From assembly GCA_964106645.2 (NCBI GenBank), contig OZ067041.1: DNA of 64,000 nucleotides, one strand, 5' to 3'. This document shows, in pieces, positions 10,288-34,510 of the stretch. The position numbers and the translations under genes were made by a program. Position 1 is the first letter of the stretch. Every line of letters begins with the position of its first letter. Origin of the DNA: Podarcis pityusensis. Taxonomy: Eukaryota. The notes under the pieces were generated by a model. It ran no database searches. It was given only the letters and a program-made list of their open reading frames with translations, and had not been told where the DNA came from.

Positions 10288-10563
<276 letters not shown>

Positions 10564-10943
10564 TTAGTAGCCTTTATTTGAAATAGTAACACCTGCCCCA
10601 CTTTCAATCCAATTTCTCTTTTCTTTTTTAGTCATTGACTTTCTTTTTTTAAAACAGAAGCAGAAACCATAGTCCTAATTATATATTTTAGTAGATGTGC
10701 TAGAATACCAATAGTAGTACTGAGCATTTCTATACCTCTGAGTATTTACGGTAATTTATTTCAATCATCCACAACAACCCTATTAGGTGAATCACTATTC
10801 TCTCAGGAGAGGGAGCTAAGGCCAATATGGTGATTTTCCTATTGCCATTTAATCATAGCTCAGGGTCTTTATGGAATCTGGAGAGCTTGCTCATAGCTCA
10901 CATTGCTAACACGACATCATTACTGGAAACTACCCCAAATATT

Positions 10944-11428
10944 GCAGAGACGTCACCTTGCCAACAAAGGTCCAAATAGTTAAAGCTATGGTTTTCCCAG
11001 TAGTGATGTATGGAAGTGAGAGCTGGACCATAAAGAAGGCTGATCGCCCAAGAATTGATGCTTTTGAATTATGGTGCTGGAGGAGACTCCTGAGAGTCCC
11101 ATGGACTGCAAGAAGATCAAACCTATCCATTCTGAAGGAAATCAGCCCTGAGTGCTCACTGGAAGGACAGATCCTGAAGCTGAGACTCCAATACTTTGGC
11201 CACCTCATGAGAAGAGAAGACTCCCTGGAAAAGACCCTGATGTTGGGAAAGATGGAGGGCACAAGGAGAAGGGGACAACAGAGGACGAGATGGTTGGATA
11301 GTGTTCTCGAAGCTACCAGCATGAGTTTGACCAAACTGCAGGAGGCAGTGGAAGACAGGAGTACCTGGCGTGCTCTGGTCCATGGGGTCAAAAAGAGTCA
11401 AACACGACTAAACGACTAAACAACAACA
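10944..11428 (+). mobile_element. RTE-clade BovB LINE, 5'-truncated
   Basis: ORF VKAMVFPVVMYGSESWTIKKA...IDAFELWCWRRLLRVPWTARRSN...LKLRLQYFGHLMRR.DSLEKTLMLGK; (CAA)n tail; 12-bp TSD accccaaatatt at 10932-10943 and 11429-11440. Confidence 0.92.
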
Positions 11429-14400: not shown

Positions 14401-15032
14401 AGGAAAGACAATTTCTGCAGTTGTCTTAAGGAAAATTCATTCACACAGACTAACAGGTGTACCAACTAAGCTAGAGATACAACCTATATTAATGGTTATG
14501 TCTACAGACACCTTTCGGAGGGGTAATCAGTATAGCCATGAAAGAAACAGGTGAAATGTTCTTGGTTTGGTTTTCTTTTTTAAGTAAAAGGTTATTCAAG
14601 TTATATTAAGTGTCTCACAGTAAAGCTACACACTCTCAAAAACATCAAGACAGATAACTTACTGTGTAGGCAATTAATTCTGGTTGGCATAGTGGTCCAC
14701 TTATGTTTACAAAGAGAATAGGTAAGAAATTTGGAGTCAGAAATATAGGTAAGGAGGTAAATACAATGAAGAGTCAAAATATGCAAGTTCCAAGTTATAC
14801 TGAGTTTGGTAATAATGGCTGAGAACCTGAAGTTGTGCTTTATATATATGTCTTCCTTATATATATAAAAAATACCCTAATTTTCCATTTTTAAAAATCC
14901 CTGCTCTTGAACTTCTCAAACTAAGATTAAAAAGAACCACCACCCACACTGTAAGGCTGTCACACTATTGCATTTTTAAAGAGCACCCACTGACACTCAA
15001 TTTTTTTCTACCAAATTTAGAATTCATATAAC

Positions 15033-15205
15033 CAGTGCTTTTTCCTGGGGGGACGCAGGGGTATACATACCCCTAAACATTTTGTGAATCTTTGTACTTT
15101 TGTCAGTTTACTGTATTTCTTTTTCCCAATTTGAACTACAAAATGGTGATACTCTTGAGTCAAAATGAGTGTACCCCTAAACAATTTTAAAGAAAAAAAG
15201 AACTG
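15033..15205. mobile_element. Non-autonomous hAT-type DNA transposon
   Basis: TIRs CAGTGCTTTTT / AAAAAAAGAACTG; 8-bp TSD catataac/catataag; internal repeated TACCCCTAAACA. Confidence 0.75.
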
Positions 15206-15359
15206 CATATAAGAAGTCATACTTTTGCACGTGGCGCTCTTAGAGCTGCTTCACATACCAAGTTGTACAAACTCACCACTTTCAATTAAAGTGTCACAGG
15301 ACTTGCCTTGGGTTGTCTGTATGCATTGGGGGGAACTGTAGTTAGTTTTGCTGACAGTA

Positions 15360-15925
15360 CAGTGGTACCTTGGGTTACAGATGCTTCAGGTTACAGACTC
15401 TGCTAACCTAGAAATAGTAAGGTAAAGGTAAAGGTAAAGGGACCCCTGACCATTAGGTCCAGTCGTGACCGACTCTGGTGTTGTGGCACTCATCTTGCTT
15501 TATTGGCCGAAGGAACTGGCGTACAGCGAACCAGAGCAGCGCATGGAAATGCCGTTTACCTTCCCGCCAAAGTGGTACCTATTTATCTACTTGCACTTTG
15601 ATGTGCTTTCGAAGTGCTAGGTTGGCAGGAGCAGGGACCGAGCAATGGGAGCTCACACCATCGCGGGGATTCGAACCGCCGACCTTCTGATCGGCAAGTC
15701 CTAGGCTTTGTGGTTTAACCCACAGCGCCACCCGCGTCCCGCCACCCACAGAAATAGTGCCTCGAGTTAAGAACTTTGCTTCAGGATGAGAACAGAAATC
15801 GTGCTCTAGCGGCGGGGCGGCAGCGGGAGGCCCCATTAGCTAAAGTGGTACCTCAGGTTAAGAACAGTTTCAGGTTAAGAACGGACCTCCAGAACGAATT
15901 AAGTTCTTAACCCGAGGTACCACTG
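15360..15925. mobile_element. Tc1/mariner (Tigger/pogo-like) MITE containing a nested Sauria SINE
   Basis: TA|CAGTGGTACCT...AGGTACCACTG|TA; internal repeated CAGGTTAAGAAC units. Confidence 0.85.
15419..15749 (-). mobile_element. Sauria SINE (reverse orientation)
   Basis: The minus strand starts GGGACGCGGGTGGCGCTGTGGGTTAAACCAC, has a B-box-like GGTTCGAATCC and ends in an (ACCTTT)n tail; TSD agaaatagt at 15410-15418 and 15750-15758. Confidence 0.85.
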
Positions 15926-16607
15926 TAGTTTATATTCATAGATTGAGCATAATTTAAAAGAGAGAGAACATATAGCCATCTCTTATGTTACAGGGTATGC
16001 TACCAGTACACACTGCACAAGTACACATGATGTACTTACTAATTGTGTAGTGTGCAACAGCTCTTATTAAAGTGCTTGAACACCTTTATTTAGGATATAT
16101 TAAAGCTGGTTTTTTTTAAGTAAGAAAAATAAAGATGGTATAACATGAATGAATTATTGAAGTACAACGGAAACTAAAGTAATATGTGGATGTTTTACAA
16201 GAATTGCTCATTGCAATTCTTGCAATTATAGAAAACTTATAAAAAGTCTAAACACTTTGCTGCCCTGGCCTGCTTTGGAAGGAAGGACAGGATATGTTTC
16301 ATAAATAAAATGATATAAAACAAGCAATAAATATAGAGCTGAGTACATCGGTCTTTAGAAGCCCTTTTATGTAGATACTTTTTGCCAAAACTACTTTCTC
16401 AGGGGTACCACTTTTGAATGAGGCACCCAATTACTAAGGCAGAGAGATGAATAAATGCAGACACATTAACTAGAATAGGGGAAAAGTTGGTGTTCTTAAA
16501 CAAGTTTATATGTAGAATTAATTATGAAAAGGTCATGAAACTGCTTAAAAAGTGTGCTCATAATTTTATTTTATTAAAAAAAAAAGCTCCAAGAGAAATC
16601 CCATTAC

Positions 16608-16923
16608 CTTTGGATTTCTTCACAGTTCCAGGTTCCGAGATGCTTATGGAGCTCCCAGACATCTTATCACAGTCTTGGTCTAGTAGTGCATTGCTCTGCC
16701 ATTGTTCGCTACTGTCATCTAAAGTCCAGGCATCATGGCTGTTTTCCTGGGGATCTTCATGGGCAGGTATTGTTTGGGATACATACAGTGAGAGTTTTTC
16801 ATTGGAAGGAGACTGTGCAAGAGACCCTTCTACACTGGAAGACTCATCTTGCTTATAGGAGCCATCCATGGCTGCCGCATAGTCCATCATGAGTGCAGCT
16901 TCAGTATCCTGAGATAAATTAGT
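16608..16923 (-). CDS. C2CD2: C2CD2 exon 13
   Basis: tccag|TNLSQDTEAALMMDYAAAMDGS...SISISEPGTVKKSK+G|gtaat; 316 nt. Confidence 0.92.
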
Positions 16924-17118
16924 CTGGAACAGTAAAACAAAAGAGATGCAGAGATAAAACTGGTTGAGAAAAACGTATAGGAACCGAGGAGCTGTTCTAG
17001 GCATGTCCAAACCCTTGGGGGATTTTGTTGTTGTTATTCTGCTCTTTTAGCAAGAAATTTATTTAGTTTTAAAAGTAAATTCTAGGAGGGGGAAAAATTA
17101 TGCAAAGGGTGGGGTTCA

Positions 17119-17268
<150 letters not shown>

Positions 17269-17414
17269 TTAAAAGAATGTGATTAAGAGAATGACAAGAT
17301 GCAGACAAGATGCAGGCAACAACTGAAGACACAAAGAATCAAAGCAGGAATCTAGTAGAAAGCCAGTTATGTAAACCAAGCCTTGATTTACCAATATTTT
17401 TTCCAGTGCACTCC

Positions 17415-17845
17415 AATAAAATGCTGGTTTCGACCTATAAAGCCTTAAACGGCTCAGGACTGCAATTCCTCAAGGACTGCCTCTCCCCATATGAACCAGC
17501 CCGAAACCTGCAATCATCATCAGAGGCCCTTCTTCATGTATCCCCTCTGTGAAAGATATGGAGGGCAGCAACACGAAAACAGGCCTTTTCTGTGGTGGCT
17601 CCCTGTCTGTGCAATGCTCTCCCCAGGCAGGCTCACCTGGCACCTTTGTTACATTTTTCTAGTGCCAGGCAAAAACATTCCTCTTCTCCCAGGCCTTTGT
17701 TTAATTAGCCAATCTATGGCCTTTTAAATGGGGAGGGAGGGTATTGTTTTTGTTTGTTACTATGTTACGTATTTTTGTGTTTTTATATTGTAAACCACCC
17801 TGAGATCCTCAGGTGAAGGGTGATATAAATAATAAATAATAATAA
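17415..17845 (+). mobile_element. L2-clade LINE 3' fragment (degraded)
   Basis: KMLVSTYKALNGSG..FLKDCL; (AAT)n tail at ~17826-17845. Confidence 0.75.
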
Positions 17846-17935
17846 TTCAGCTCTGACCCTTATGTTTGAGTTGTGTCTATAGAGACAGACCAACTTTCAA
17901 ACTTAATGCTATTTATTTACATGTTAATATTTTTA

Positions 17936-18184
<249 letters not shown>

Positions 18185-18898
18185 TTATTTTCTCATCTGC
18201 ATATTTCAAAATATATTCCTTAATAAAGGTCTACTAGGCAAGACATGCAAGTTCCATGATTCAATCTACTGGCAACTTAAAAACAACAACAAAACAACAA
18301 CAACAAAACCCTTAAAAACAGCTCTGGGGATTTCCAGATTGAGTCTAAACACTAGGAAGTGCTTTTTTAATTCTTCCCTCCCATGACATTTCTCCCTTCC
18401 AAAATCCTTTCACCAAAACTGGTAACAGTCTTGCTGGGTAAAACAGGTACATATATTGGAACGGCTCACAGACCAGCACTTTAACCATTCTGATCTTCAT
18501 TTTTGGAGTTTCTATATATTTTTCGGCACATTTTAAAAGCTACCTCACTAGGTCATGGATGCAAAAGCAGGACACGAGTTCAATAGGCACAGAACTGGAC
18601 ATTCTTGACAATTTGTGAAAACTGCAAGCCAGATTAATTTTATTGTGATTCAAGCCAGTCAGCTAGTGTTAGCACTTTCTCACTGTAAAAAATTCACACT
18701 TATTATGAAAGTGAGCCTAGAGTTACACAGATGCCTTTTATGCTATAGTAAATTTATAATTCATGCATGGTGGATCTCTCCACTTGCAGGCTGAAGGACT
18801 GACATGGCAGATTTTAAACAGACGTCTCATAAATTAGTAAAAGTAACAATCCATCTTCTTCATTGCTGCAATAGGATTTTATTACTTGGACATTCAAT

Positions 18899-18900
<2 letters not shown>

Positions 18901-18930
<30 letters not shown>
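18901..18930. repeat. (TG)15 microsatellite
   Basis: Direct read. Confidence 0.95.
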
Positions 18931-18933
<3 letters not shown>

Positions 18934-19020
18934 ATAGTCTCAGGACTAAAGAAAACAAATGGTTCTAAAGTTGAACGCATGCTGCAGACCTTCTCTGTTT
19001 TCTTGTCTGTGCTACAATAT

Positions 19021-19022
<2 letters not shown>

Positions 19023-19061
<39 letters not shown>
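19023..19061. repeat. (CA)~19 microsatellite
   Basis: Direct read. Confidence 0.95.
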
Positions 19062-19065
<4 letters not shown>

Positions 19066-19827
19066 GAAAGAATGTATTGCAGATGTCTTTTAAGTTTCCA
19101 AGTCCCCTGATGGCAGCCTGCCTTTCATCTGGTCACCAATACATTTCTAACTTCTCATTCATTTCCAAGGACTGTTCAAAATGCATCTCTTAAGTATAAA
19201 GGTAAGTGCTTGGTCAGTGGTGGAATTTAGGCTCTCAAATTTCAGCTGCTCCCTGTGTGACCAAAATTTGGTGCTCCCCCCGCTTCTCTCGCTCCATTAT
19301 GCAGCATTCATTTAGCGCCCCCTGCACTGCGGCCCCCAGGACAACAGCACCAGTTGTGCCAACTTGGTAATACTTGGTGAAGCTATCCACGCACAAAAAT
19401 TAAGAAAATAAACCTTATGGAAATTCTTATGTTAGCAGCTTCTTACAACATTTTTGAAATTTTTACTCCTTGTACCCATCACTTCCTGAAAGGATATGAA
19501 AAAAGCTGCAATCTTTTTCCACATTAATTCCTTGTTTTCAACAATATTTCAGTATTTACACATGCTGGCATATGTACTTAAAGTAATTGGCTAGATGATA
19601 AAGTGTATGAATTTTTGAACTCATGCAGCTATTTGCAGAACTCAGTACCAGGCTATACTGGTACAGGAACCAACCTTGTGTGACATCATCATGTACCAGA
19701 GCCACAGATAATTAGATAATTTATTACCTGCTTTTCATACAACTTAAAAATGTACCAAAGAATTGCTTTTTTTTTTTTTTTAAGTCAAGCTTTGGGAGCA
19801 ATCCAAAGTTGTGTTCTATTCTTTCAC

Positions 19828-19999
19828 CTGAATGCAGAATAGATGGTCTCCCTTCTATTAAAGGCTTGGCTTTCACAGCAGTAACAGTAGTGATCACAGT
19901 CCCACAAGGCATCACAGTTCGATCTTTCTCTACTTTTGCAACAGGAATCTTGGGGGGAACTTGCAAAGTTCTGGACTCTGAAGGTTCTATGTATAAGAA
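19828..19999 (-). CDS. C2CD2: C2CD2 exon 10
   Basis: tttag|FLYIEPSESRTLQVPPKIPVAKVEKDRTVMPCGTVITTVTAVKAKPLIEGRPSILHS+G|gtgaa; conserved KDRTVMPCGT; 172 nt. Confidence 0.94.
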
Positions 20000-20464
20000 C
20001 TAAAGAAGAAAAATAGTTAGGATTTTAAAATTCAATTAAGGACAGTTCAGTAGCGATAAATTGGTGATAAAATTTGGATAGGCCACATGTAAGGGGAAAA
20101 CCTGCAATGTATGACCATAGTCCCACTGATTTTTGGAAATCATGTACATAAAAAGAGTAATTTTTGCATTATCGTTAGCTATTTTGCATGGTATACATGT
20201 CTACCATTTACTAAAAGAATTTATAAACTGTGTTGGACTAGAGAACCCTTGTGGTCCCTTCCAACTCAATAATTCTATGATCCTATGAAATGTTTCCAAA
20301 GCACCAAATTATGCAAATTGAGTATACACCTGAGTCATATTTCAGGGAAAGACATTCGTTTTCAATAGCTGCCTGAAAGCAAGGAGTTGGGAGCTGATTA
20401 AAACTGGTTGGGTCAGGAGGAAAAAACTAGTTCGAGAAGCCAGCTTATAAACTTAAAATTCTAC

Positions 20465-20592
20465 CTCTGCAGTAACGGATCCTACAGTAGAGCTACTACT
20501 GCTGAGCTGACTGTTCAGTGCAAAACCTTTGTGTCCAGAAGGCTGTCTCCTGAACAAGTCCAAAGGTACAGCAGCCACAGCTGAGAAACCAC
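20465..20592 (-). CDS. C2CD2: C2CD2 exon 9 (C2 domain)
   Basis: tgcag|(S)GFSAVAAVPLDLFRRQPSGHKGFALNSQLSSSSSTVGSVTAE|gtag; 128 nt. Confidence 0.92.
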
Positions 20593-20720
20593 CTGCATTG
20601 AAAAGAAATGCATTGAAATCTATCTGTACATGAATCCACTAGTAGATCAGCATCCTATTAGATTGTTGTTGCAGAAATAAAAGATTAGACACATAAAATG
20701 AATTTATCTGCAATACTTAC

Positions 20721-20782
20721 TATCCAGTCCCCCTTTTTCTACAATCTTTACTTGCAGTTCTTTTGATTTGGCATTTAATTCA
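20721..20782 (-). CDS. C2CD2: C2CD2 exon 8 (C2 domain)
   Basis: cacag|(F)ELNAKSKELQVKIVEKGGLD+A|gtaag; 62 nt. Confidence 0.92.
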
Positions 20783-21336
20783 CTGTGAACAGAAAAAAAG
20801 CATTTTAGAACTGTCATATAGTTTCATATTTTGCAATATAGATTACTGACTACAGCCTATCCACATCCTGGAAAGTTTCACAAGGTGGATTCCTGTCTGC
20901 CAAAATAACTGCTAAAAGGTATAAGAACCTTGCAAGAAAAATAAAAAACTTACCTCTCCACACACCTCACTTATTGCAGTATATCAAATTTCCCAAAAAG
21001 TAAAAAAAGAACTTATTTGGTAAGACCACTGTACTGTCTTCAGCAATACTGAAAATGTATTAAGCTGCTAACAATTAAGAAAATACAACCTCTCTCATTT
21101 AATCGCTCTTCACTGGACAACCCAAGAGCCACCCATGTTTGTTTAAAACAAACAGCAACTAAGACTTCCCCCGCCCTGTCCCCAAGCATTGGCACTAGAA
21201 TATTTAGGAAATATGATAACTTATGAATGCTTAGCAGATAGGATTTTCCCCTGCCCCATAGTGACATCTGGAGGATAATAGAAGGTGTAACATTTCCCAC
21301 TGTGCTTATTATAGTGTTATTAAAATCAGAACTTAC

Positions 21337-21445
21337 AAGATGAATTCATCTTTCCAAGAGAAGTCCATGGGACTATTGGCTGCAGAGCTTGAAAACTTCT
21401 GCAAAGGATCATTGAGCTGGATTATACATACTGGGCTAATGCCAC
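21337..21445 (-). CDS. C2CD2: C2CD2 exon 7 (C2 domain)
   Basis: tgcag|GGISPVCIIQLNDPLQKFSSSAANSPMDFSWKDEFI+TT|gtaag; 109 nt. Confidence 0.92.
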
Positions 21446-22898
21446 CTGCAATGAAGGTAAAAGATGAGTTTGTTTCAAGTGAGAATTGCTTAAGGTACCT
21501 CTTTATGCTTTTCACATTTGAGTGAACTACTGGCAGGAGACCTCATCCAAGAAACCCTTTGGGAGTTGTGTGAGAAGTATAACCTGCACCAACATGGCTA
21601 GCAGTGCAAGGTCTGTTATCTACATGACAGCAAAGCAGAAGCAAAGTTACAAGAATGAAGTTAGGAACTCGGGAAGGTTCCTGTGAGCAGAAGCTTCATC
21701 ATTCCATCTTTGGGCAGGGGAATGTTCTGTGTGCACAGTGGCAAATACAGATTATTTTCAAAACAAAAGCCTCCATTTCCCTTTTGATTCAAGCCCTTAG
21801 TAGCCAGAAATGCAATTCTAGATGTATGCTTAAAAAAACTGTTTTAATGTTTGAAAGCTGCTCAGGAGACTCAAAGAGCCTATTAGCCATTCATCTAGGG
21901 CTTCCTTAGGAAAAATACAACCAAACCATGATTCAAATCACAACAAAAGCAAGACTGTCAAAGACTATACTGCTCCAAGATCAATTATCATCCAAATTCG
22001 GCCAAGATTTGGAAAATAGGGGTAACAATCCGTTAAAAACAGTATGCAAAGGCAAGGTGAAGATCTCTACCCTTAACTCTGGCCTGCCCTGAAGTTAGGG
22101 AAACAAGCAAGCATAGACTTGTAGAACCTTACAAAACCTGATGGGCAAGTTTTTAATTCAGCTTCTCGTAAACAGGCTGCACAGTTCACAGCACACATAA
22201 TGTAATGCCACCTATACCTTTTGGCTGTTCTGATGTTTTGAGTTGTGTAAGGCACTTCTAGTTAATACAACAGTAGAAATTGTTTCAGTTATTAAAATAC
22301 TGTCATCAGTGAAGAAACATATGAGCAATGTAAGGTATGAAAAAGGATGGCTGGAGAGAAATATTTTTCTGTACTGAAGTTAAAAATAATATTTTTAAGA
22401 AGTATTATTATAGAAGGCCCATATTACAGAGATCAATGAAGAGTTCATTCTACATAAAAGAGAAAGTTCACATCTCTCTGGGGTGCTTCTCAGTGGGGTA
22501 TAGGCCACCCAGTGTTCAGAGTGCAAGGCAAGTTCTTGCCTAACCTCAGAAGCAACTCTGGGAATTTTATTTTGGCAAGAGTGTTGAGAAATGTCTCCTA
22601 AGGGCCTGGAGTCCACACATGGAACTGCAACTCAAAAGAAAAGAAAGCAATTTGTTTGAGGTGTTAGCTTGCCATACGATGTGCCTCCTTGTGAGTGTTC
22701 TCCACCCTACATACAAAATCCTGAAGCTTCAGAGAGGAAAAAGAATAAACCAAATCTCAACCAGTCATGTATCCCTGAGGCAAAGCCCAAGCCTTTCTCT
22801 GCAATTATGGGATATAATTTGTGACCACTGCTTGTTATTTTTGCAGAATTAAGAGATTATAATATGGGGACAAAGGGAAGTAAAACCAAGTTATTTAC

Positions 22899-23019
22899 CC
22901 GCAATGCTTTGATTGGTCAGTGTAGCTTTGATGTTTTTCATCAGCAGTTTTAGTTCATGAGCCCTTGGAGGTTTAGGAGGACTGGTGCCCTGAGGCACAA
23001 CACCTGTTTTTTGTACATT
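22899..23019 (-). CDS. C2CD2: C2CD2 exon 6 (start of C2 domain)
   Basis: tag|NVQKTGVVPQGTSPPKPPRAHELKLLMKNIKATLTNQSIA+G|gtaaa; conserved PPKPPRAHELKLL; 121 nt. Confidence 0.92.
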
Positions 23020-23233
23020 CTATTAAAAGGAAGCAAAACAAATAAGATTGTTTTAGATAAACTCCAAGCAATTTATGTTCACATCAATTAACTTCCAACA
23101 GTCATACATATGTGTGAACTGGACAAATAGATTTAGCCAAAGCCCTGAGTCATAACTTACCACAGCACTAATGAAGATGGAGGCACAGCAGTGACAAATA
23201 AAAACAGACTTTAAAATAAAAATAGATAAATAC

Positions 23234-23356
23234 CTGCAATGCCTTTACATCTGTAGGTTTTGTACTCAGAATCACAGAGGGAGATGCTGAATTTATGAGA
23301 TACCGCAGCAGACCTTTAAGTGTTTCTGATACTGCACATGCCCCAGCTGTCTGGTC
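23234..23356 (-). CDS. C2CD2: C2CD2 exon 5
   Basis: tttag|DQTAGACAVSETLKGLLRYLINSASPSVILSTKPTDVKALQ|gtatt; 123 nt. Confidence 0.9.
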
Positions 23357-24770
23357 CTAAAAAGGAAGAATACATTGATACATTGCACTGCTTGTAAAAT
23401 TCAGAAGCTTGGTTCACTTTCGAAAGACACCACAGCTATATTGCTCTACATGCACTGTACTGAACAAAAACAGATTGTGGCTCCACTTCTCTGGGCTTAA
23501 GTTGCATCAGGAAAATGGAAATATGTGTAGACATAAGCTCCTTTCCTATGCTCTTATTTACAGCAAAGGGAAATAGTCAGAGCAGTTTGTAAAGCCATGA
23601 TGCACTCAATTAGAGCAACTTTGTCAAAAGCCAAGTCTAAAACAGCCAAGATCCAAGCAAGAGATTACACTGATTGGCTTACTTCCTGGCAAGGCCCCAC
23701 AAGTCATTAATAAAATTGCTGATCCACACCGCTCACCAAGAAGGGTCTGCGGTCATAATGCTGCATTATGACTATTTAAGGAGAAGGCATCATTTACTCT
23801 GAACAACCTTGACAATTCTCTGCATTATTTTAAAAAAGCAATTCCTTTGTGCAGATGCCGATCCATGTGCAACATTTAGCTGTGGATAATGACTAAGACA
23901 ACAGAATATCACCTTTAGCTAAGACCAGGGTAAGATACAGGTCATGTATGCATGTTGTCAACACCCTTTGAACACACACTGTTCTTCAATACTTCAGTCA
24001 TGTACACCCCTCTGCTAACCTCCTTATTCTTACCCCTAAAAGTTGCACTGCAACAACTTAAATACCAGTATTTGCTTTAGTGCCCCTTTTCTAGTTCTGA
24101 ATATTCAGTGGGAGACACAACAGCTAAATTCAATCCTGCCTCCTATCTGATATTTTAGTAGCATGACCCCCATAAATGCTGCCACTTAGGTGGGGTCTCT
24201 CAACCTTTTAGAAGAGAGAGCTTTTAAAAACCCCTTGTAGGATGAGAAGGCCATCCATAACATCCCCCCAGTACACAATTTTGGGCAAACAGCGGCCCTT
24301 TTTGTTGCATCACAAAGTGCTTTTAAGTCTTCCAAGCTTGGTGTGTGGGGCAGGAAACTACGGTAATCCTCAAAGGGGGTGGGGAATGTAAAAGAAGTCT
24401 CGTTGGGTGTGTGGAGTTAATCACTGTTCTCTGTGAGGCAAATATTAAAATATCTGTAGACTATTATTAAAGGTGAGCATTGGAAGCAGTGGCTTATAAT
24501 TACTCATGCAAAACTGACACCTAAACATTTAATTTGAATCATTTCAAAGAGCCATGCTTCCAAGCCAATATGCCATGGATTGCAGCTATACATCCTCTCC
24601 TAAGTAAGCTGCCTTGGAAGCAAGTCTTTCTAGGTGTCAGATCAAGGTATTAGTAATTATTTAAAAAGTAAGAATCAAATTTGCATAAGCTGCTGCAAAC
24701 ATAATCATTAATTTAACATGTAGTTTTGATGGAAATCATGCTAGACACAAGCAAATGCTAACAGACTTAC

Positions 24771-24875
24771 CTCCTGTACTTTAGTAGGCTTAATTTCAGT
24801 GTTTGTTTCTGAGGTCCAGATGAAAGACCACTTGACCTGAATGTCTTCCTCTTTGGATTTCATTGAAAGTTTCAG
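24771..24875 (-). CDS. C2CD2: C2CD2 exon 4
   Basis: tacag|LKLSMKSKEEDIQVKWSFIWTSETNTEIKPTKVQE|gtaag; 105 nt. Confidence 0.9.
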
Positions 24876-25514
24876 CTGTAAATACGATATCATTACCATT
24901 TTAGTTTTGCCCATTAACAGATCTTGTACCCTAATTTTACTAGTTCTTCCAGCAATTCACAATGGTTGCAATTCATCAAGCAAGTACTGGGAATTTCCCA
25001 TTGTCAGAATCTGAATATTTTGTGCTTGTAGATTTTTTTTTTGCCTTCCATAACCACAAAGGGAGCCCAGTCACCCACACAATTCATTGATAACCATAAA
25101 CAATCAGATCAATTTAACCTGCCATCATTTATAATTCACGCTTGCTAAAAGCTGAGCCATAGCAGTCACTAACTGCATATTAGGGACACAACATTTCATA
25201 ATGTCTCCATATCTGTTTATATTTAGAATCCTGGTTCTGAGGGTTCAGTCAAACTACAGCTATTAAGTTCAGATGTACTGGCAAACTATGGTTTGATTCA
25301 ATAAGAAAGTAATGACTTAAGCTTTGCATGCAAGGGGGGGGGGGGAGGAATGGTTGAGCCTACACATCTAAACCATGGTTAGCAGAATTCTTCAAATGCA
25401 GTCAATATTAAACCCGAGGAGGACTTTTCAAAAGTTCCACTTACTAGACTATCTGGGCTAACCTAATAATAGAAATAAATAAAACTATAGGTAAAATTTA
25501 GCAAAACAAATTAC

Positions 25515-25646
25515 CTGCAAATGAAGTGGAGACAATTTTACACTGTAAGACTGACATTCCGAAGTAACAGATGAAGAAACAGAAGAAGGATTGGGCATAC
25601 TGACAATAAAATGAAAGGCATTTCCAATTACATTACAAGAGACCAC
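25515..25646 (-). CDS. C2CD2: C2CD2 exon 3
   Basis: ccag|VVSCNVIGNAFHFIVSMPNPSSVSSSVTSECQSYSVKLSPLHLQ|gtaat; 132 nt. Confidence 0.9.
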
Positions 25647-27189
25647 CTGGAATAAAAGTAAAACTTGGCTTTAGAGACTGCATACACACATTTATATAGG
25701 ACACTATTATGTGCATTTATGTAATTGACTGTCACTCACTGACAGTAGAGTTCAAGCTTTCATTGTGGCAACACATGTAGTCTAAAATTAAAGGAGGCCT
25801 CTCCCCCACCTCCTCAGGTGAATACAACTGGCATATAATACTGTCCATTGTATCAAAAAGTCTAATTTTAGAACCAAAATTATATTCTTCTAAAGACAGA
25901 AATACAACAAAGAAGTGAGGACCTGCAACTAAAAATGGTGCATTATATGCCCAGCTGCTGACAAGAGCATTCAATGTTCCAGCAAGTATTTGGGATTTGT
26001 AGGGGAGCGGAGAGAGAGAAGTAGAGTTTTTTTTCCCCTTTCCCACATTCCTGACACCTTTCCTTCCTACGTTGCTATGCAGAGCTAGCCCTGAGTCCAA
26101 TCACTCCACCCTGCCTTGCACTGTATTGGAGAATGAGGAAGTTTCTAGGGAAAGGGAAGAGGTGGGCGTTTTTTCTTCCCTCCCTCCTGAAACTGCCCTG
26201 GATTGTTCAGGGAGTTTCCCCCACAACCAGGATACAAGCTGTTTGGGGCTTCAGCAGGTCAGTTCCTACTCTCTCCCCACCCATTTCATTTTCCTTTCCT
26301 CCAAAACTGACACACTCAACTTTCTATGGAATTTTGAATGTATGTGTTTGTGGGGGGGAGACAAGGGGTGTCAAATGAAATAACCAGAAAATGAAATTTA
26401 ACAGGAAGATATATTAAGTTAGGGAACTAGCTCAGTTATTTTCTGCAACATGCTCTTAACAGACCAGTTGCTCTGCTTCATTAGAGGGGGGGGGGACCCT
26501 TTACACAGGCAGAAGCAGAACCCCCTCACTTTTTTCTCCCCCATGCCATTTAACTGAAATCAATATTTTTAAAATTTGTAAATCATGCCCTTACTGTTTG
26601 TGGCTCTAAGTTTAGTTATTAATACAATCAGCCTCTAATGCAAATTCATGTGCCTGACAGATTTTCAACATCCTATTAGAATGCACAAATATATTATTTA
26701 ATTTGCTTGCTTTTCAGCCACAGAGAGATTTGTGAAGGTTAGCTCAAGATGGTCAGACAAAATTAAGAAGACGCTTTCTTATTACCATTATTAGTCTGGC
26801 TTCTGCAGAAGACCAGACCAATGAACCACCACTATTCGCCTCTAGGCTTACCTGCAAGAGTACAACATTGTCTCCCTGCCCCAGATTCCTTTCCCACAAC
26901 CTTTGCAAATAATAATGGCGAAGGCTATTAGAAGCACATATTTCTCTTTCTCAAGCTATTCTCTTTCCCAAGAACAGGTTTGCCTTGCAATTCCTATTAA
27001 CTATTTCTTGTCTGCTAACTTTCAAAAGCAGAGTAGCATAACCCTAGTCATTAATCCTGTCATTAAGAGATCTGTGCAAATTTTACATAGCTAACATGGA
27101 AAAGGTTGTTTATTTACCAGCATGATGCACAATTTGGCCAAACTTTTTGTGAGAAACATCACAAGTAGCAAATTGGGAAAGACTGTATT

Positions 27190-27322
27190 GATAGAAGAGT
27201 GTCTATGCATGCACACAAAAGCTCATACCAATAACAAACTTAGTTGGTCTCTAAGATGCTACTGGAAGGAATTTTTTAAAAAAAAAATCGACTATGGCAG
27301 ACCAACAAAGCTACCTACCTGT
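27190..27322 (+). mobile_element. Second Penelope-like fragment, hammerhead core degenerate
   Basis: GCATGCACACAAAAGCTCATACCAATAACAAACTTAGTTGGTCTCTAAGATGCTACTGG...AGACCAACAAAGCTACCTACCTG; CUGA is lost and GAAA has become AAAA. Confidence 0.65.
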
Positions 27323-29222
27323 AACCAGAACGGTATTGATAGTTAGTGAAAACTATAAACACATACTTCTGGGCATAGTGATATTGTTACATTACTAGTC
27401 CTTATAATCGTTGTATTTTGCTACAAAAAAGAAAAGACCGCAAATATCCAACTCTCCACTCAACAGCCAACTCATACAATACTCTCAGGACAGACACCAT
27501 GACAGCAAGCAGGGAGCCCCTTACTGTGATTCCACTGGCATTATTTATCAGCTTAAAGAAGTCTTTTAGGCTCAGTAGGTCTTATTCCCAGGTAAGCATA
27601 CACGGGATTTATGCCTTAAATTGTCACTATGGTTCCTAAAGCTGCAACACTTACAATTTTCCCCAGCAGTGATGTTTTCAGGTGGCAAATTAAGCGGTCT
27701 ATACTCTTTTAGGGTCTAGAGTAGAATCTACTGAAAGGAACTCAGGGAGAGGGCTCAATATATATGTATCAAACAGCATAACCAGGTCTCTAAAGTACTC
27801 ATTGGACATTTGACAAGTGTGTTTATGTTAACAGGCAGTGATGAGACAGTGACAGGGGGCTGCCCCTGTTCTGATCAATTGTTCACTCCTGTTGAGGAAA
27901 GAGTTAGCTAGCAAAATGCCTGAAGACAGCTCTAGTGATCTTTCTTCCTTGTACTGATCAGGCCCACATCTCCTTAATGTCACTAGTGCTAGGTAGCTAT
28001 TCATCAGCAGTAAAGTATTCCAACAAAGAAATCGGTTAACAAGGCACAGCGTGTATGAATAGTTATGCTACTTCAGGCTGTTACTGAAGAAGTCTTCACA
28101 TTGCATTTGTCAATATAAGCTAATCCTGGCCATAGCAAGAAAATTATAAAAGAGGATTATTGCTACTGTATGATTTTCTGTTATCAATATTCACAGGCAC
28201 GTGACTGAGAGGACACACCCACTGCTAGAGAAAAGCATGTATTTAACAATGAAGTGAAAGTCTGCAGAGTGCCACTCCCACAGTTCACAACAGTTGGAAA
28301 TTACAGACAATATTATGTGAACTTTGTTCAGGGTGTGCCTTAAGCTAAGAACAGCAGGAACAGAGAGATAAAAGTGTAACTCCATCCAGAAAGGCCAGCC
28401 TACAAGATGAAGGCATACCTCAGACTAGGCTTGTTTACAGGGGATTAAATTGAACCCTTGATCCTACTCCTGTTTTGATATTATTACCTTTGCTCACAGG
28501 AGTACTTCTGCAACTTACTCAAAGATTTTGAAGCCAGAAGGACTTGTGCTCGTGTTTGCTTCTCATGGAGACACTGGTATGTCAATTCCTAGCATACTTG
28601 TGCCTGATTTGCGAATAATTTTCTTCACTGGAGTGATTTCAGATACACTCCAGTGAGAACAGCCTTGCAAAAAAGCAGTCCTAAAAATTTTTGTAGTACC
28701 ACTTAAGTTAAACACTATGTAGTTTGCCAACCACATCAGGAGCCTGACAACCAAGTCGGTTGGCATATTACTAACAAAGACAGAGTGGCTTCTATTCCAA
28801 CATCAGATGCTAAAACACTATGCATATGCTTCTTAGAAAAACAAAATACAGCCCTTACAATTATATATCCATTCCTGGTCTTTATATTTGCATAGCTCAT
28901 ATTTTATGGAATGCAGTTTCTAAGAGCGCAAGTTATTAACCAGTTGCATAGGGGCATACTGCATTTTTAGTACAGACCACTTTATTTGTGTATATTAATG
29001 ATCATAAAAGAAAAAGGCAATCAGAGACAGACAGACAAAGATAGGGTGTGCAGTCCAATAAAGAAAATAACAAATTGTTACACTGACTGATATGTATCAT
29101 TTTAAAATTGTCCTTGACCCAGATCTAGGGTTCAGAAATTCAAATGCATACATTTTGGTGGGGATGGGAAAACGAGACAAGAGACCCACAAAGTAAGGAA
29201 CTATCAGGTCAAGCAAGCTCAC

Positions 29223-29321
29223 CTTTTCATCAGCAGACTTTACCACACTTACAACACGTTGTACCACAAGCTCTAGAGGCCGAGGAGCTGCATGTTCTTC
29301 AAATGTAAACAAGCGGGAGTC
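29223..29321 (-). CDS. C2CD2: C2CD2 exon 2
   Basis: cccag|DSRLFTFEEHAAPRPLELVVQRVVSVVKSADEK|gtgag; 99 nt. Confidence 0.92.
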
Positions 29322-29389
29322 CTGGGGGAGAAAAGTAACATTTATTTGAAATAGTTTCCATAGCCCAAGGCAGAAATGCTTCTGAGTTC

Positions 29390-29530
29390 CAGTTGCTGGA
29401 AACCACAGGAAGGAAGAATGCTCTTGAGCTCAAGTCCTCCTTGAGAGTTTCCCACAGTCATCTGGTGGATGAACATGGTGGGAACAGGACGCTAGACTAG
29501 ATGGGCCATTGGCCTGATCCAGCAGGCTCT
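29390..29530 (+). mobile_element. CR1-type 3' end fragment
   Basis: GGAACAGGACGCTAGACTAGATGGGCCATTGGCCTGATCCAGCAGGCTCT, a recurring squamate CR1/SINE tail. Confidence 0.5.
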
Positions 29531-32014
29531 GACGTTCTCAGTTCCCTGTTTGGCATGGGTTTCAGAGTATATGTTATTATTGAAGTTCACAGATTCCAAA
29601 GAACCCCAAACAGCTGGATGTTCAGCTAAATTCCAAGTCCTAGGACTAAATTTAGGAAGAAATATTTGACAATTAAGTATGCAAATATGCTTGCCATAAC
29701 AGCTCCTTGATTTCATCTGAATTAGGTGCCTGAGAAGCTCAACTGCTTATATTAGAAGAGCCAAAAAGCAACTTATATTTATCTTGCTTAGTAATGTGTG
29801 CCATAAATCATGTGGCTACAAGATCGTCACCTAATTGTGTCACCTAATTATTACTTCAGTATAAACAGAAACCAAGTAATGGCTACTTAATACTGTGGTG
29901 GACATAAGTTTAGTTTTAAGAACTAACCCCTGTGAGCAGTCCATGTCCACCCCATACTGACAATACTAAACAGAGTAATTTTACCAACAAGTTACTTAGC
30001 ATTATACAGCACTTTAGAGTGTTCAAAGGATTCACATTAACTCCCCCAGTCTTCCTAATGACTCTTTAGGGTAGGCCAGTATTATTTGTATAATTGCAAA
30101 TTAGGGGCTAAGGCCAACAGATTCTAGTTCGCCCAAGGCAATCTTGTAGGATGTTGCATCTCATTGAGGACACTCTTAGGGTTGTGTCTGTGTATGATTA
30201 GGGTTTGCTCAAATATTATTGTGGGGTACAGCCTCCAATTCCTTATTCATTTCTACAAATATTATCAAGAATGCTAGGCATGCAACAATAATTGCCAGTA
30301 GTTTACACAAAACTGCAGTGAACAAGATACGGTGCTTGGGTTGTCTCATACAAGGCAATCTCCTGGAAATGCAATTGCATGATTTGGGATGGCCCAAGTA
30401 TGAAATTGGGATGAATAGCCCCAGTTCCTTATTTGTGTTTTCTGAGGTTCAAGTACTATGCAAAACACAATGTGTTTTTTGTTCTGTTAGAGAGTCATAT
30501 ACACAAATATTATTAAACTGACATTACCAGCTGTAGCTGGTGTGTGTGTGTGTGTGTTAAACTACATGCTCATACTTTCAGTTCATTATAATATACATGA
30601 AAGCTTGAGTCATGGGGTAAGGAGAATGTGTGCATGAATTCAACTGTGCTTAGCTTATTTTTGGTTGCTATTTTGTTACTGTTGTTATTATTGTTTTATA
30701 GATTATGAAGGCTGAAGTACTTTTTGGATCCTATAATATGATTTTTGTTGTAATTGTGATGTTTAGCTTTTTTTAGTAGTTTTGTTAATAGTGTTTTATA
30801 GATCGCAATTGTTTGATTGATCATTTATAATTGTTTTGCTGGTGATTCATGCTGTATTTGTGATGTTCTATTATTGAATTGTTATTTATAAGCAGCTTTG
30901 GGATTCATTTGAATGAAAAGTAGCGTAGAAATATAATTGATCAATCATTGGCAGGGGAAAGGAATACAACTCCTGTTGAACACAAGTAAACTTTAAGCAG
31001 TGCTGAAAGCTCTACTGCAGATGTTCTCAAACTGTGGCCAATGGAAAGGTTGCTGAACAGCTGAGACTTTCTGTTCTCGGTCCTGCACTCAAGCTACTGC
31101 TGCTCCACTGGCTTATGACAATTCACAAGATTTTAAAATGTGCAAAAAAATTTAACTGATTTGTAGGAAGGACTCTATGAACTGTAAGCAGAGATACTGT
31201 ATGAACTTTTGTAAACCCCCCCCCCAAATCTTTAATAAAAACATTTTTTTAAAAAAGAGTCATGGTCACTTAAGACTGGGTACATTTACCTTTCTCTTTT
31301 GTACTTTCAGTCATGTATGATGTGATTTTAATGACCTGTTCACATTTGTCAAGTAACAAATAAGTAAAATAAATAAAGCTAGCACACCACACCCCTTCAT
31401 GGAAAGATGGAGAATTTAGTAGTCATCTGCATTGCTAAAAATTTAGGATTTCAAGCCTGTGTGTGTGTGTGTATGTGTGTGTGTAATCTCTTGAACTTGC
31501 AACATTAGCAATGGAGTCACATTTAACTACAAACTGCTTATTATATGTTGCGTATGCTCAGTTGTTACATTAACATTCTTCTCGAGTTTGTGATGAAGCA
31601 GAAGAAGCAAATCAGAGTTTCACTGGCTTCCTGATGACAGCATTGTTTTGAGTTGGACGGCTCAGTGAGAGTAAAAACACATTGCGCTGCCAGGCAGTGA
31701 ACTCATCAAAAGAAAAAGGATGCAGTTGCTTTCTTGGAAAGGATGTACGGATGCAAGGCATTGTTACTTTCCTATCAGCTTTCCTACAGTGTGCTTGCTT
31801 CCTAGCCTTTGACCCCCTCACAATTTACAGTTCAATTTGCAGGTTTTTTTGTTTTTGATTTAAAGTTATTAAGATCTAATGGAACACAGACAAGCAACGT
31901 GCTAGGTCAGGTATCATTAACCTTTCCTGACCCAGGAACCAGTTTTAAACCAAACATGCATTTGGGGACGCATTTCTTAACCTTTTACCATACATATAAT
32001 TGCAGGGTGCTAGT

Positions 32015-32228
32015 CAGAGGCATGCCTAAGGGTCGGTGAAACTGGCCTTCATCGGGGTTGCAGGCCTGGGGGGCACGAGCAAAAATCACCTACCAGGCTA
32101 CGGAGCGTATATATGTGTGTGGCAAAGCACTGAAATTTAGGATAAGGTTCCCATCCTTCACACAAAGGGGTGCAGTAAAGTGATTTTTCAGGGGCGGGCA
32201 CCAACAAGGGACCCTAGGTATGCCTCTG
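32015..32228. mobile_element. Non-autonomous hAT-type DNA transposon
   Basis: TIRs CAGAGGCATGCCTAAGGGTC / GACCCTAGGTATGCCTCTG; 8-bp TSD gtgctagt/gtggtagt. Confidence 0.75.
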
Positions 32229-33159
32229 GTGGTAGTGCTCCTTTTGCAACCCACCTTGGCTCAGGCCATGATCCACAAGCGGGTCGTGACCTACCAGTTG
32301 CAGACCAATGGGCTAGATGACTATGCACGGCACAACTGCTTTGATTTATATTTTATATAAATTTCATGAAACAAAAATGTAATAGCAATAATAATAATAA
32401 TAAAGAGAGCTCCTGGGGGGCAGCTGCCCCCCCTAAATCAAGTACGGTAAGTAAATAAAAAAATACTTAACTGACCAATTTCATCACAGATAACTCGGTT
32501 CTGTCTCCCCTAACAAAAAGCCTGTCCTCTCCTTAAAATAAATCTTGTCTATGCCCATAGGTGGGAGAAAAGGAGGCCGAATGAATGAACTCTTGGGATG
32601 GGAGTTTTAAGGGATAAAGTCACAAACAATAGTGAAGGAATTGCTCCATTTTCCAGAAATTCAAGAAAACCCAGAGAGTTTATACATAACCTACTTGCAA
32701 ATAGTTGTTTGGTAGCAAGGAGGAAAAGATCCCTTTTTTTCAGATTTTAGATTTCAGGTTAAACAAAATTACACTGATCACTCCACACAAAGTCTCCCTG
32801 ATTTTAAGGAACTGTACAGCCCCAATTCATTTATGTTTGGCCGCTTATCAACCACACTCTGTTGACATCAAACAGACGCAAAGCTGAAAGGTCCTGCCCG
32901 TGTGTGGTCAACGAAAATCGCCTGCTCTCGGTGCAACCAGCGCAACCCACAACACTTAAGAATCGAGCAGCTTTTACGGGGCAATTCTCATGGCACCGTG
33001 ACTTGAGTGCAAGTTCTCAGGTCCCCCCCAGTAAACATTATTTGTCGTTGCTCAATTCCAGACTGCAGAGCGCCTTAGCGTATCCCCTGTAGTCTGTTTG
33101 CAGCAAAAACAGCACGCAGTTTTGTTGTGGCACCTCCGAGACTAAGCTTCGCTGGACCA

Positions 33160-34510
33160 CGGTGCGCTTCCTCAGGTGCACGAAGTCCTTTTCTCCCGAG
33201 TTGCAGGTCTACAGGACACAGTTTGGCGAGGCAAGATCGCGGCCAGCGAGGTGAGAAGGCATTGCAGGGAATGGGATGGCGAGCCCAGCTCCCTACGGAG
33301 CCGGAATCACGCAGAGCTCGCCTCAATGCTTTGTCTTACCTCCCTTGCTTTGGCTTCCCGGTTAAGCGCCGCTATCCAGGCTTTCTGCCACTGGCTCCTC
33401 CAGCTGCTCAGAGACAGCAGCCAGGCGAAGAGGGGACCCTCGTCCGGGGGCAGAAGTTGCTGGGGCGCCGGCGAGGGCTGCCTCCTGGCGCCTTGCCGCA
33501 GCGCGCCCAGGCCCCACTGCACCAGGTAGACGGCGAGCACGGTCAAGGCGGCCGCGAACAAGGAGAGCAGCGAGAGGCGCTGCAGCTCGCCCAGCCAGTA
33601 AGCCAGCCAAGACATGACTGACCATAATGAGGGGAGCGGCGGGGGAAGCCTCCTCACGTGGCGGCAGGATCCCTCCCCGCCTCCCCGCGCGCCTCAAGGC
33701 ATCGGGCTCCTCCGGGTCGCCGCCGCCGCCGGCCCACGCGGAGCAAGAAGAAGAATCCCTCTCCGGAGGGGCGAGAGCGAGCAGCCCCGGCGACGGAAGG
33801 GCTCGCGAAGGACATTCGCCTCCCTCAGCGAGAGAGAAGTCGCCCGAGCCAGGAGGCAGCAGCGAGCGGGACGCCAGGAGGAGGAGGAGGAGGAGGAGCC
33901 CGCGTCACAGGGCAGGACCTGCCCCGCCGAGCCTTCAAGCAGCGCCACACGCGCGCAGCTACCGCAGCCGCCGGCCGGGAAGAGGACGAGGAGAAGCCTT
34001 CCGAAGCGCCGCCGACAAAGCGCGCTCCGCGGCCCCGGGAAGCGGAGGAGCCAGCAGCCGCATCCTGCCCTCGCTCTGCTCCTCTCCGGGCAGCCCTGCG
34101 GGACCCCGTGCGCGGCTCCTCAGGGCCCGGCAGCTGTCCCGCCTCCGGGCGCTGAGGGAATTGTCGTCCGGCTCTCAGCTAAGCTGCCCCGCCGCCGGCG
34201 AGGAGGAGAAGGGGAGGGAGGAAATCCCCTCCCCTCTCACGCGGACCGGGCAGCAGCAGCAGCGGCGGCTCCTTATCCCTCGGCGGCCCTTCCCAGCCGG
34301 CACCTCACAGCCCTTAAAGGCGCAGCAGCGGGCTGCAGTCGCGCCCACCTTTGCTCCGGCCAAGCCTGCGGAAGTGGCCGTCCAGCGGCCTGGACAATGG
34401 GAAACCATCTCCGATGTCAGGTCCGATTTCAGCCTGCGCGCGAGGCCTTGCGGCGCATCTCTGGGGCTCACGAGCCCTTTGCTGTCAAGGTTTCGAGGCA
34501 GGCCCAAATC
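33160..34510. promoter_or_regulatory. CpG island / C2CD2 promoter and exon 1
   Basis: GC- and CpG-rich stretch covering the C2CD2 start codon and about 900 bp upstream. Confidence 0.8.
33340..33615 (-). CDS. C2CD2: C2 domain-containing protein 2 (TMEM24/C2CD2L paralog), exon 1: N-terminal TM helix and start of the SMP-like region
   Basis: MSWLAYWLGELQRLSLLSLFAAALTVLAVYLVQW...SWRSQWQKAWIAALNREAKARE; donor GGAG|GTAAGA; 276 nt, phase 0. Confidence 0.92.

What the first reader, a model, noticed from the sequence alone, without database searches (positions are those of the whole stretch)
33362..33625. A 4-nt tandem duplication turns the apparently ancestral first AUG of C2CD2 into a strong-Kozak, out-of-frame overlapping uORF
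Seen: the minus strand reads CTCATT-ATG-GTCA-GTCA-TG-TCT-TGG (GTCA twice; plus-strand TGAC at 33615-33618 and 33619-33622). The upstream ATG at 33625 has A at -3 and G at +4 and lies 10 nt before the in-frame ATG at 33615, which has G at -3 and T at +4. It opens an 87-codon ORF (MVSHVLAG...SLDSGA*) that ends at 33362 inside exon 1. Removing one GTCA gives ATG GTC ATG = MVMSWLAYWLGE, which aligns without gaps to the recalled human start MAMARLGSWLGE. A tiny ATG-CCT-TGA uORF also sits at 33702-33694. Inference: C2CD2 here would be translated only by leaky scanning, with possible NMD or a novel peptide, making this a natural hypomorph or a regulatory innovation. It could also be an assembly error or a polymorphism.
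Basis: partly seen in the sequence, partly recalled or inferred. Interest (0 to 1): 0.75.

Follow-up and report, generated by a model that had tools for sequence, protein, structure and literature searches.

The report
Old decoy start before C2CD2
A wall-lizard lipid-transfer gene has an out-of-frame start codon ten bases before its real one, which probably dampens its translation, but birds keep the same spacing, so it is an old and common kind of regulatory feature and not a recent duplication that crippled the gene.

Summary
An ATG in strong context lies 10 nt before the C2CD2 start and opens an 87-codon out-of-frame overlapping ORF. It is not an assembly error: none of 4 runs (4 organism labels) has an indel there, and one contig is spliced to exon 2. 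The 'recent tandem duplication' reading fails. Of 326 reptile and bird orthologues, 256 cover the start and none has Met-x-Met. Of 32 bird models running upstream, 30 read [LV]-W-S-[AS]-Met, matching the lizard's L-W-S-V-Met without a gap. So the spacing predates the lizard–bird split, and the exact repeat is probably coincidence. The gene is intact and not evolving fast; the uORF's length is what chance gives. Best reading (0.6): an old overlapping uORF that competes with the main AUG. The bird base at −10 is unknown, and no mammal sequence was retrieved. The scan's notes held nothing on this gene. New member of a common class; modest interest.

The parts
33623..33625 (-). Upstream ATG at -10, out of frame with C2CD2, strong context (A-3, G+4)
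   Evidence: identical in run X2, no indel in X9, X12, X15
33362..33625 (-). 87-codon overlapping uORF; stop ends 22 nt before the exon 1 donor
   Evidence: no homologue found; length expected by chance
33615..33622 (-). GTCA twice; probably a coincidental repeat, not a recent duplication
   Evidence: birds have the same spacing with C at -2 where the lizard has T
33616..33627 (-). 12-nt leader block conserved in register with birds (frame-0 reading L-W-S-V in lizard, [LV]-W-S-[AS] in birds)
33613..33615 (-). Main C2CD2 start codon (G-3, T+4), the start used by orthologues across reptiles and birds
33340..33615 (-). Coding part of C2CD2 exon 1 (92 codons, including the N-terminal hydrophobic segment); spliced to exon 2 at 29321
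   Evidence: splice seen in RNA-like contig of X15
33601..33623 (-). Predicted 9-bp hairpin (-8..+1 with +7..+15) with the UG of the main AUG in its loop; weak, post hoc
   Evidence: z about -2 in short windows, -0.17 over 181 nt
33694..33702 (-). Two-codon uORF; its stop ends 68 nt before the -10 ATG
33654..33815 (-). Further non-overlapping uORF, 53 codons
33959..34063 (-). Further non-overlapping uORF, 34 codons
33616..34250 (-). Possible 5' leader in a CpG island, covered by the same spliced contig in a related organism; true start sites unknown
   Evidence: a contig cannot show a start
10288..33615 (-). C2CD2 coding span: 14 exons, all introns GT-AG, 704 aa, no internal stop

Best explanation
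An old out-of-frame overlapping uORF (oORF) placed 10 nt before the C2CD2 start, in a leader block whose spacing predates the lizard-bird split. SHOWN: the uATG and its context; no indel in four runs; its place on a spliced contig; the shared spacing with birds; an intact gene. INFERRED: birds also have A at -10 (only the TGG that follows is fixed by their peptides; any base there gives an NUG triplet with G at +4). INFERRED: scanning ribosomes often start at the stronger uAUG, run 87 codons in the wrong frame past the true start and stop just before the first junction, so they cannot make full-length protein and may expose the mRNA to NMD. The rest reach the main AUG by leaky scanning or by competition between closely spaced AUGs. 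The net effect is a standing cap on C2CD2 output set by start-codon stringency; the start site matters, not the peptide. The exact GTCA repeat arises because the lizard has T at -2 where birds have C.
For:: of 326 distinct proteins, 223 start at the canonical Met, 33 extend upstream, 9 start downstream, 61 lack exon 1; none has Met-x-Met. Of the 32 bird models that extend upstream, 30 (29 neoavian species) read [LV]-W-S-[AS]-Met; the other 2 hold only one upstream residue. Three of the 30 are NCBI XP_ models with continuous frames (P0141, P0166, P0169). The window reads L-W-S-V-Met; chance of L-W-S in that register is about 2 in 10,000. Up to 11 of 12 leader bases can match the bird peptides; no indel in 4 of 4 runs; X15 contig runs from 34250 through the site into exon 2; 704 aa intact; 66.4% identity to tuatara against 62.3-66.5% for seven other squamates. 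Mechanism: PMC9743702 (abstract and passages) reports that out-of-frame uAUGs repress, less so when close, and trigger NMD in yeast; PMC4770231 (abstract) reports sliding past recognised AUGs even in good context.
Against: No bird, turtle or non-lacertid DNA was seen, so A at -10 outside these lizards is inferred. 27 of the 30 bird models are 'partial' models that probably extend only as far as they match a guide protein (recalled), which inflates conservation among birds. No upstream data for fowl, ratites, crocodilians, snakes or geckos; one turtle model (P0053) reads M-A-L-Met instead. No translation data: nothing shows the uAUG is used. For X9 and X15 a substitution in the uATG is not excluded, because 18 substitution rows were hidden (by my tally 7 of X9's 18 and 11 of X15's 28 listed changes). 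A local hairpin could explain the conservation without a uAUG. Start sites are unmapped.
Confidence: 0.6

Rival explanations
1. The leader block is old, but the ATG is a squamate or lacertid gain by one substitution at -10 (birds carry CUG, GUG or UUG there). The oORF is then a lineage-restricted, tolerated dampener, still without any duplication.
For: Bird peptides leave the third base of the Leu/Val codon free; A is only 8% of the leader's bases; uORFs are reported depleted near coding sequences (PMC4890304 abstract passage).
Against: The neighbouring bases that can be determined mostly match between lizard and birds, so a match at -10 is the simpler guess; PMC11057154 (passage) cites uAUGs as the most conserved 5'UTR triplet.
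Confidence: 0.24
2. The block is conserved because it pairs with codons 3-5 in a hairpin around the main AUG; the uAUG is incidental and little used.
For: 9-bp stem with pair probabilities 0.91-1.0 in a 150-nt context; z about -2 in three short windows, 6-11 of 200 shuffles as stable; the bird C at -2 would keep its pair with G+9.
Against: Windows were chosen after seeing the stem; z -0.17 over 181 nt; 70 of 259 proteins have W-L-P at residues 3-5, which breaks the -6/+13 pair, and passerine models with W-L-P keep W-S-A upstream; 20 have Gly at residue 3.
Confidence: 0.11
3. One reading: a recent 4-nt tandem duplication in this lizard lineage shifted an ancestral in-frame first AUG out of frame, giving a hypomorph.
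Against: 0 of 256 sauropsid models with Met-x-Met, and birds share the 'duplicated' spacing; such repeats occur 3.5 per kb; no rate acceleration.
Confidence: 0.04
4. Assembly error or private polymorphism.
For: None at this site. The window does differ from all four runs at one other base (33462).
Against: X2 is identical at the site and no run has an indel.
Confidence: 0.01

Closest known systems
Out-of-frame overlapping uORFs (oORF/uoORF) of vertebrate mRNAs
   Same: uAUG in the leader, no in-frame stop before the CDS, different frame, stop inside the CDS (definition in PMC11057154). 15.0% of 18,764 human MANE leaders hold at least one oORF (in-frame extensions included).
   Different: Unusually close to the main AUG (10 nt) and in the stronger context of the two; spacing apparently kept between lizards and birds. 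No paper linking C2CD2 to a uORF was found.
Closely spaced competing AUGs (Brownian-ratchet scanning, PMC9743702; 43S sliding, PMC4770231)
   Same: Two AUGs closer than about 17 nt and out of frame, so the downstream AUG should win part of the initiation.
   Different: Those data come from yeast libraries, HeLa reporters and reconstituted systems; this is a natural gene, untested.
ATF4 delayed re-initiation leader (recalled)
   Same: A very short uORF followed some 70-90 nt later by an out-of-frame uORF that overlaps the CDS.
   Different: In ATF4 about 100 nt separate the inhibitory AUG from the main AUG (recalled); here 10 nt, too little for ribosomes to skip one and catch the other, so stress induction by that route is unlikely.
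C2CD2 / TMEM24 (C2CD2L) ER-plasma membrane lipid transfer proteins
   Same: Orthologue of C2CD2: 96.6-99.1% identical to lacertid C2CD2; relatives carry PF18696 and PF00168; SMP region matches TMEM24 structure 5TOD. Broad expression and tether function per PMC11334333 (passages).
   Different: Nothing unusual in the protein.

Membership tests
Out-of-frame overlapping uORF | AUG upstream of the main AUG in another frame | tested here: met
Out-of-frame overlapping uORF | First in-frame stop lies inside the CDS | tested here: met
   (stop ends 33362)
Out-of-frame overlapping uORF | Present on the mature mRNA | tested here: met
   X15 contig spans the site without indel and is spliced to exon 2; related organism, RNA status guessed by the tool, substitution rows partly hidden
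Out-of-frame overlapping uORF | Translated and repressive | not testable with these tools
   needs ribosome profiling or reporters
Recent tandem duplication of an in-frame start | Outgroups carry the single-unit state (Met-x-Met) | tested here: not met
   0 of 256 reptile and bird models; 30 of 32 extended bird models keep the lizard spacing; mammals not retrieved
Recent tandem duplication of an in-frame start | Repeat rarer than background | tested here: not met
   3.5 such repeats per kb
Conserved-peptide uORF | Peptide homologues in other species | tested here: inconclusive
   no hits, but alternative frames are rarely annotated
Conserved-peptide uORF | ORF longer than the main frame's codon use predicts | tested here: not met
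   60% of 20,000 resamples as long
ATF4-type delayed re-initiation | Short upstream uORF that allows re-initiation | tested here: met
   two-codon uORF at 33702-33694; use not shown
ATF4-type delayed re-initiation | Long gap between inhibitory AUG and main AUG | tested here: not met
   10 nt against about 100 nt in ATF4 (recalled)
ATF4-type delayed re-initiation | Induction by eIF2-alpha phosphorylation | not testable with these tools
   needs experiment
Hypomorphic or decaying gene | Broken frame or relaxed constraint | tested here: not met
   14 GT-AG exons, 704 aa, no rate excess against tuatara or tortoise; a protein-identity check only, no dN/dS

The most novel reading that the evidence does not exclude
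C2CD2 dosage would then be sensitive to start-codon stringency (eIF1/eIF5) in sauropsids but not in mammals, a natural experiment on competition between closely spaced AUGs.
Probability: 0.3. Interest if true: 0.5.

Novelty: new member of a known kind. Interest (0 to 1): 0.27.

Why it matters
As an overlapping uORF it belongs to a common class, so general interest is modest. If the uAUG proves conserved from lizards to birds at only 10 nt from the start and in the stronger context, it is a clean natural test of how ribosomes choose between adjacent AUGs, and a first handle on translational control of an ER-plasma membrane lipid transfer protein. It also shows that a perfect short repeat need not be a duplication.

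Tried and rejected
Whole genome: none held. Outgroup DNA: metagenome scans with an exon 1 alignment (0 of 595 pattern matches confirmed) and a full-length alignment (0 of 340), and a viral scan (0 of 237) gave nothing. uORF peptide: no relative among 684 candidates, among 1.84 billion representatives or in the Atlas; a blank here is weak evidence. Run search: no holder on record as RNA; X15 is a guess by the tool, though its contig is spliced. Literature: C2CD2 with uORF, upstream open reading or ribosome profiling gave 1-2 listed papers each, none about a C2CD2 uORF by title or abstract start. Supplement searches for C2CD2 found nothing in PMC4890304 (1 small file), PMC6283423 (60 characters held, uninformative), PMC11057154 (3 files) and PMC10032668 (6 files). 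The supplement of PMC7530721, which lists chicken conserved-peptide uORFs, could not be read and may bear on novelty. The scan's own notes held nothing on this gene. Rejected: artefact, recent duplication, selected peptide, ATF4-type switch, decaying gene.

Full report
OBSERVATION. The sequence is as described. On the minus strand an ATG at 33625 (A at -3, G at +4) lies 10 nt before the ATG at 33615 (G at -3, T at +4). It opens 87 codons in another frame and stops at 33362, 22 nt before the exon 1 donor. GTCA occurs twice at 33622-33615. The leader holds three more ATGs: 34063 (34 codons), 33815 (53) and 33702 (2). Perfect 4-nt tandem pairs are common in this window, 227 positions or 3.5 per kb, so the repeat alone does not show a duplication.

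THE GENE. The main frame is C2CD2 of a lacertid lizard. Splice-aware assembly gives 14 exons, all GT-AG, 704 aa, no internal stop, 99.1% identical to Podarcis lilfordi and 96.6% to Lacerta agilis and Zootoca. Identity to tuatara is 66.4% and to tortoise 68.9%; seven other squamates give 62.3-66.5% and 64.5-68.5%. There is no sign of decay. This is an identity check, not dN/dS.

IS IT REAL? I laid 4 of 24 listed runs: X2 (organism A), X9 (C), X12 (D) and X15 (E, guessed RNA). All have full depth in bin 33610-33645 and no indel listed there; the gap totals of the covering contigs are accounted for elsewhere. X2's covering contig has one other letter (33462) and one 3-nt insertion (33717), so it is identical at the site. 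X12's covering contig has 18 of 20 other letters shown, none at the site. For X9 and X15 substitutions are less certain, because 18 rows were hidden (my tally: 7 of X9's 18 and 11 of X15's 28 listed changes). The rows shown for X15 alone all lie at or below 33709, which suggests the list was cut in position order and that the site is unchanged; this is inference. X15's contig runs from 34250 to 33339 and its loose end is the first 30 bases of exon 2, so the site is on a spliced transcript in a relative. A contig cannot show where transcripts start.

WAS THE uATG THE ANCESTRAL START? Among reptiles and birds, no. Of 326 distinct proteins (isoforms and close species included), 223 begin at the Met matching 33615, 33 extend upstream, 9 begin downstream and 61 lack exon 1; none has Met-x-Met. 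Gene callers usually take an in-frame ATG two codons upstream when there is one (my knowledge), so its absence is informative. The key evidence was unplanned: 32 bird models translate through the leader, and 30 of them, from 29 neoavian species, read [LV]-W-S-[AS] before the Met; the other 2 hold a single upstream residue. The lizard reads L-W-S-V in the same register; with one unit removed it would read I-M-V. A chance match of L-W-S is about 2 in 10,000. So the distance from the TGG to the start has not changed since lizards and birds parted (about 280 million years, recalled). Birds have C at -2 where the lizard has T, so the second bird unit is GCNA and the perfect repeat is most simply a later coincidence. 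Caveats: 27 of the 30 are 'partial' models, probably projected from a guide protein (recalled), which inflates conservation among birds. That does not affect the lizard-bird comparison, and three XP_ models show the same reading in continuous frames. One turtle model (P0053) reads M-A-L-Met, while other models of that species start at the canonical Met.

WHAT IS NOT KNOWN. The bird peptides fix T-9, G-8 and G-7 but not base -10, the third base of the Leu or Val codon. With A it is ATG; otherwise CTG, GTG or TTG, always with G at +4. Three scans for outgroup DNA found nothing. I put conservation of the ATG itself at about 0.65-0.7, by judgement from the match of the flanking bases.

HOW IT MOST LIKELY WORKS (inferred). 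A scanning ribosome meets the stronger AUG first. Those that start there pass the true start out of frame and stop 22 nt before the first of 13 junctions, with 12 further downstream, which fits the usual NMD rule (recalled). Others start at 33615. PMC9743702 (abstract and passages) reports that AUGs within about 17 nt compete, that repression by an out-of-frame uAUG weakens as it nears the main AUG, and that such uAUGs lower mRNA through NMD in yeast. PMC4770231 (abstract only) reports sliding past AUGs in good context. So 'translated only by leaky scanning' is too strong, and a partial, tunable cap is more likely. The peptide looks incidental: exon 1 has T at only 6.5% of third positions, so that frame stays open by default (60% of 20,000 resamples as long), and no homologue was found. 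The layout recalls ATF4 (short uORF, then overlapping uORF), but the 10-nt gap is too short for delayed re-initiation to tell the two AUGs apart.

RIVALS. (a) The ATG is a lizard gain by one substitution in an old block, 0.24. (b) The block is kept for a 9-bp hairpin with codons 3-5, 0.11: z is only about -2 in windows chosen afterwards and -0.17 over 181 nt, and 70 of 259 proteins have a residue that breaks one pair. (c) Recent duplication and hypomorph, 0.04. (d) Artefact, 0.01.

KNOWN AND NEW. Overlapping uORFs are common: 15.0% of 18,764 human leaders, in-frame extensions included (PMC11057154 passages). C2CD2 is a broadly expressed ER-plasma membrane tether and lipid transporter (PMC11334333 passages). 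I found no paper on a C2CD2 uORF in three searches or four supplement searches (one held almost no text). PMC7530721's supplement, which covers chicken uORFs, was unreadable (passages read). PMC9825487 and PMC4890304 were read as passages; other papers were seen only as listings.

VERDICT. Real and fixed, but not a recent duplication and not a crippled gene. Most likely an old overlapping uORF beside the C2CD2 start: a new member of a known kind, interest 0.27. The boldest open reading, a twin-AUG element out of frame in sauropsids and in frame in mammals, has probability 0.3 and would merit 0.5.

Noticed in passing
window 33462: All four laid runs, including X2, read C where the window's plus strand has G; it changes residue 52 from Glu in Podarcis relatives to Gln in the window. 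A private allele or a consensus error.
   Followed up: no
window 34318-34313, minus strand: TATA-like TTTAAG about 63 nt upstream of the 5' end of the X15 contig (34250), which stops inside a short GCT repeat. A weak hint of a start region near 34290 and a leader of about 650 nt.
   Followed up: partly
window 33694-33725: The stretch just upstream of the two-codon uORF varies: 14-nt deletion in X9, 3-nt insertion in X2, three adjacent substitutions in X15; no change is listed in the uORF itself.
   Followed up: no
window 33601-33623, minus strand: Predicted 9-bp hairpin around the main AUG whose first base is the G of the uAUG.
   Followed up: partly
protein P0053 (Terrapene model): Has an in-frame Met three codons upstream (M-A-L-Met), unlike other models of the same species; may be a model artefact or a turtle variant of the upstream ATG.
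   Followed up: no
window 5001-7000 and 53001-54000: Two more GC-rich islands, probably promoters of the neighbouring genes (PRDM15 and ZBTB21 by recalled human gene order; not tested).
   Followed up: no
proteins P0018, P0041, P0056, P0097, P0315, P0316: Models from leopard gecko, two anoles, pig-nosed turtle and a tinamou have N-termini shorter by several residues before the hydrophobic segment, so the start region has been remodelled independently in several lineages.
   Followed up: no
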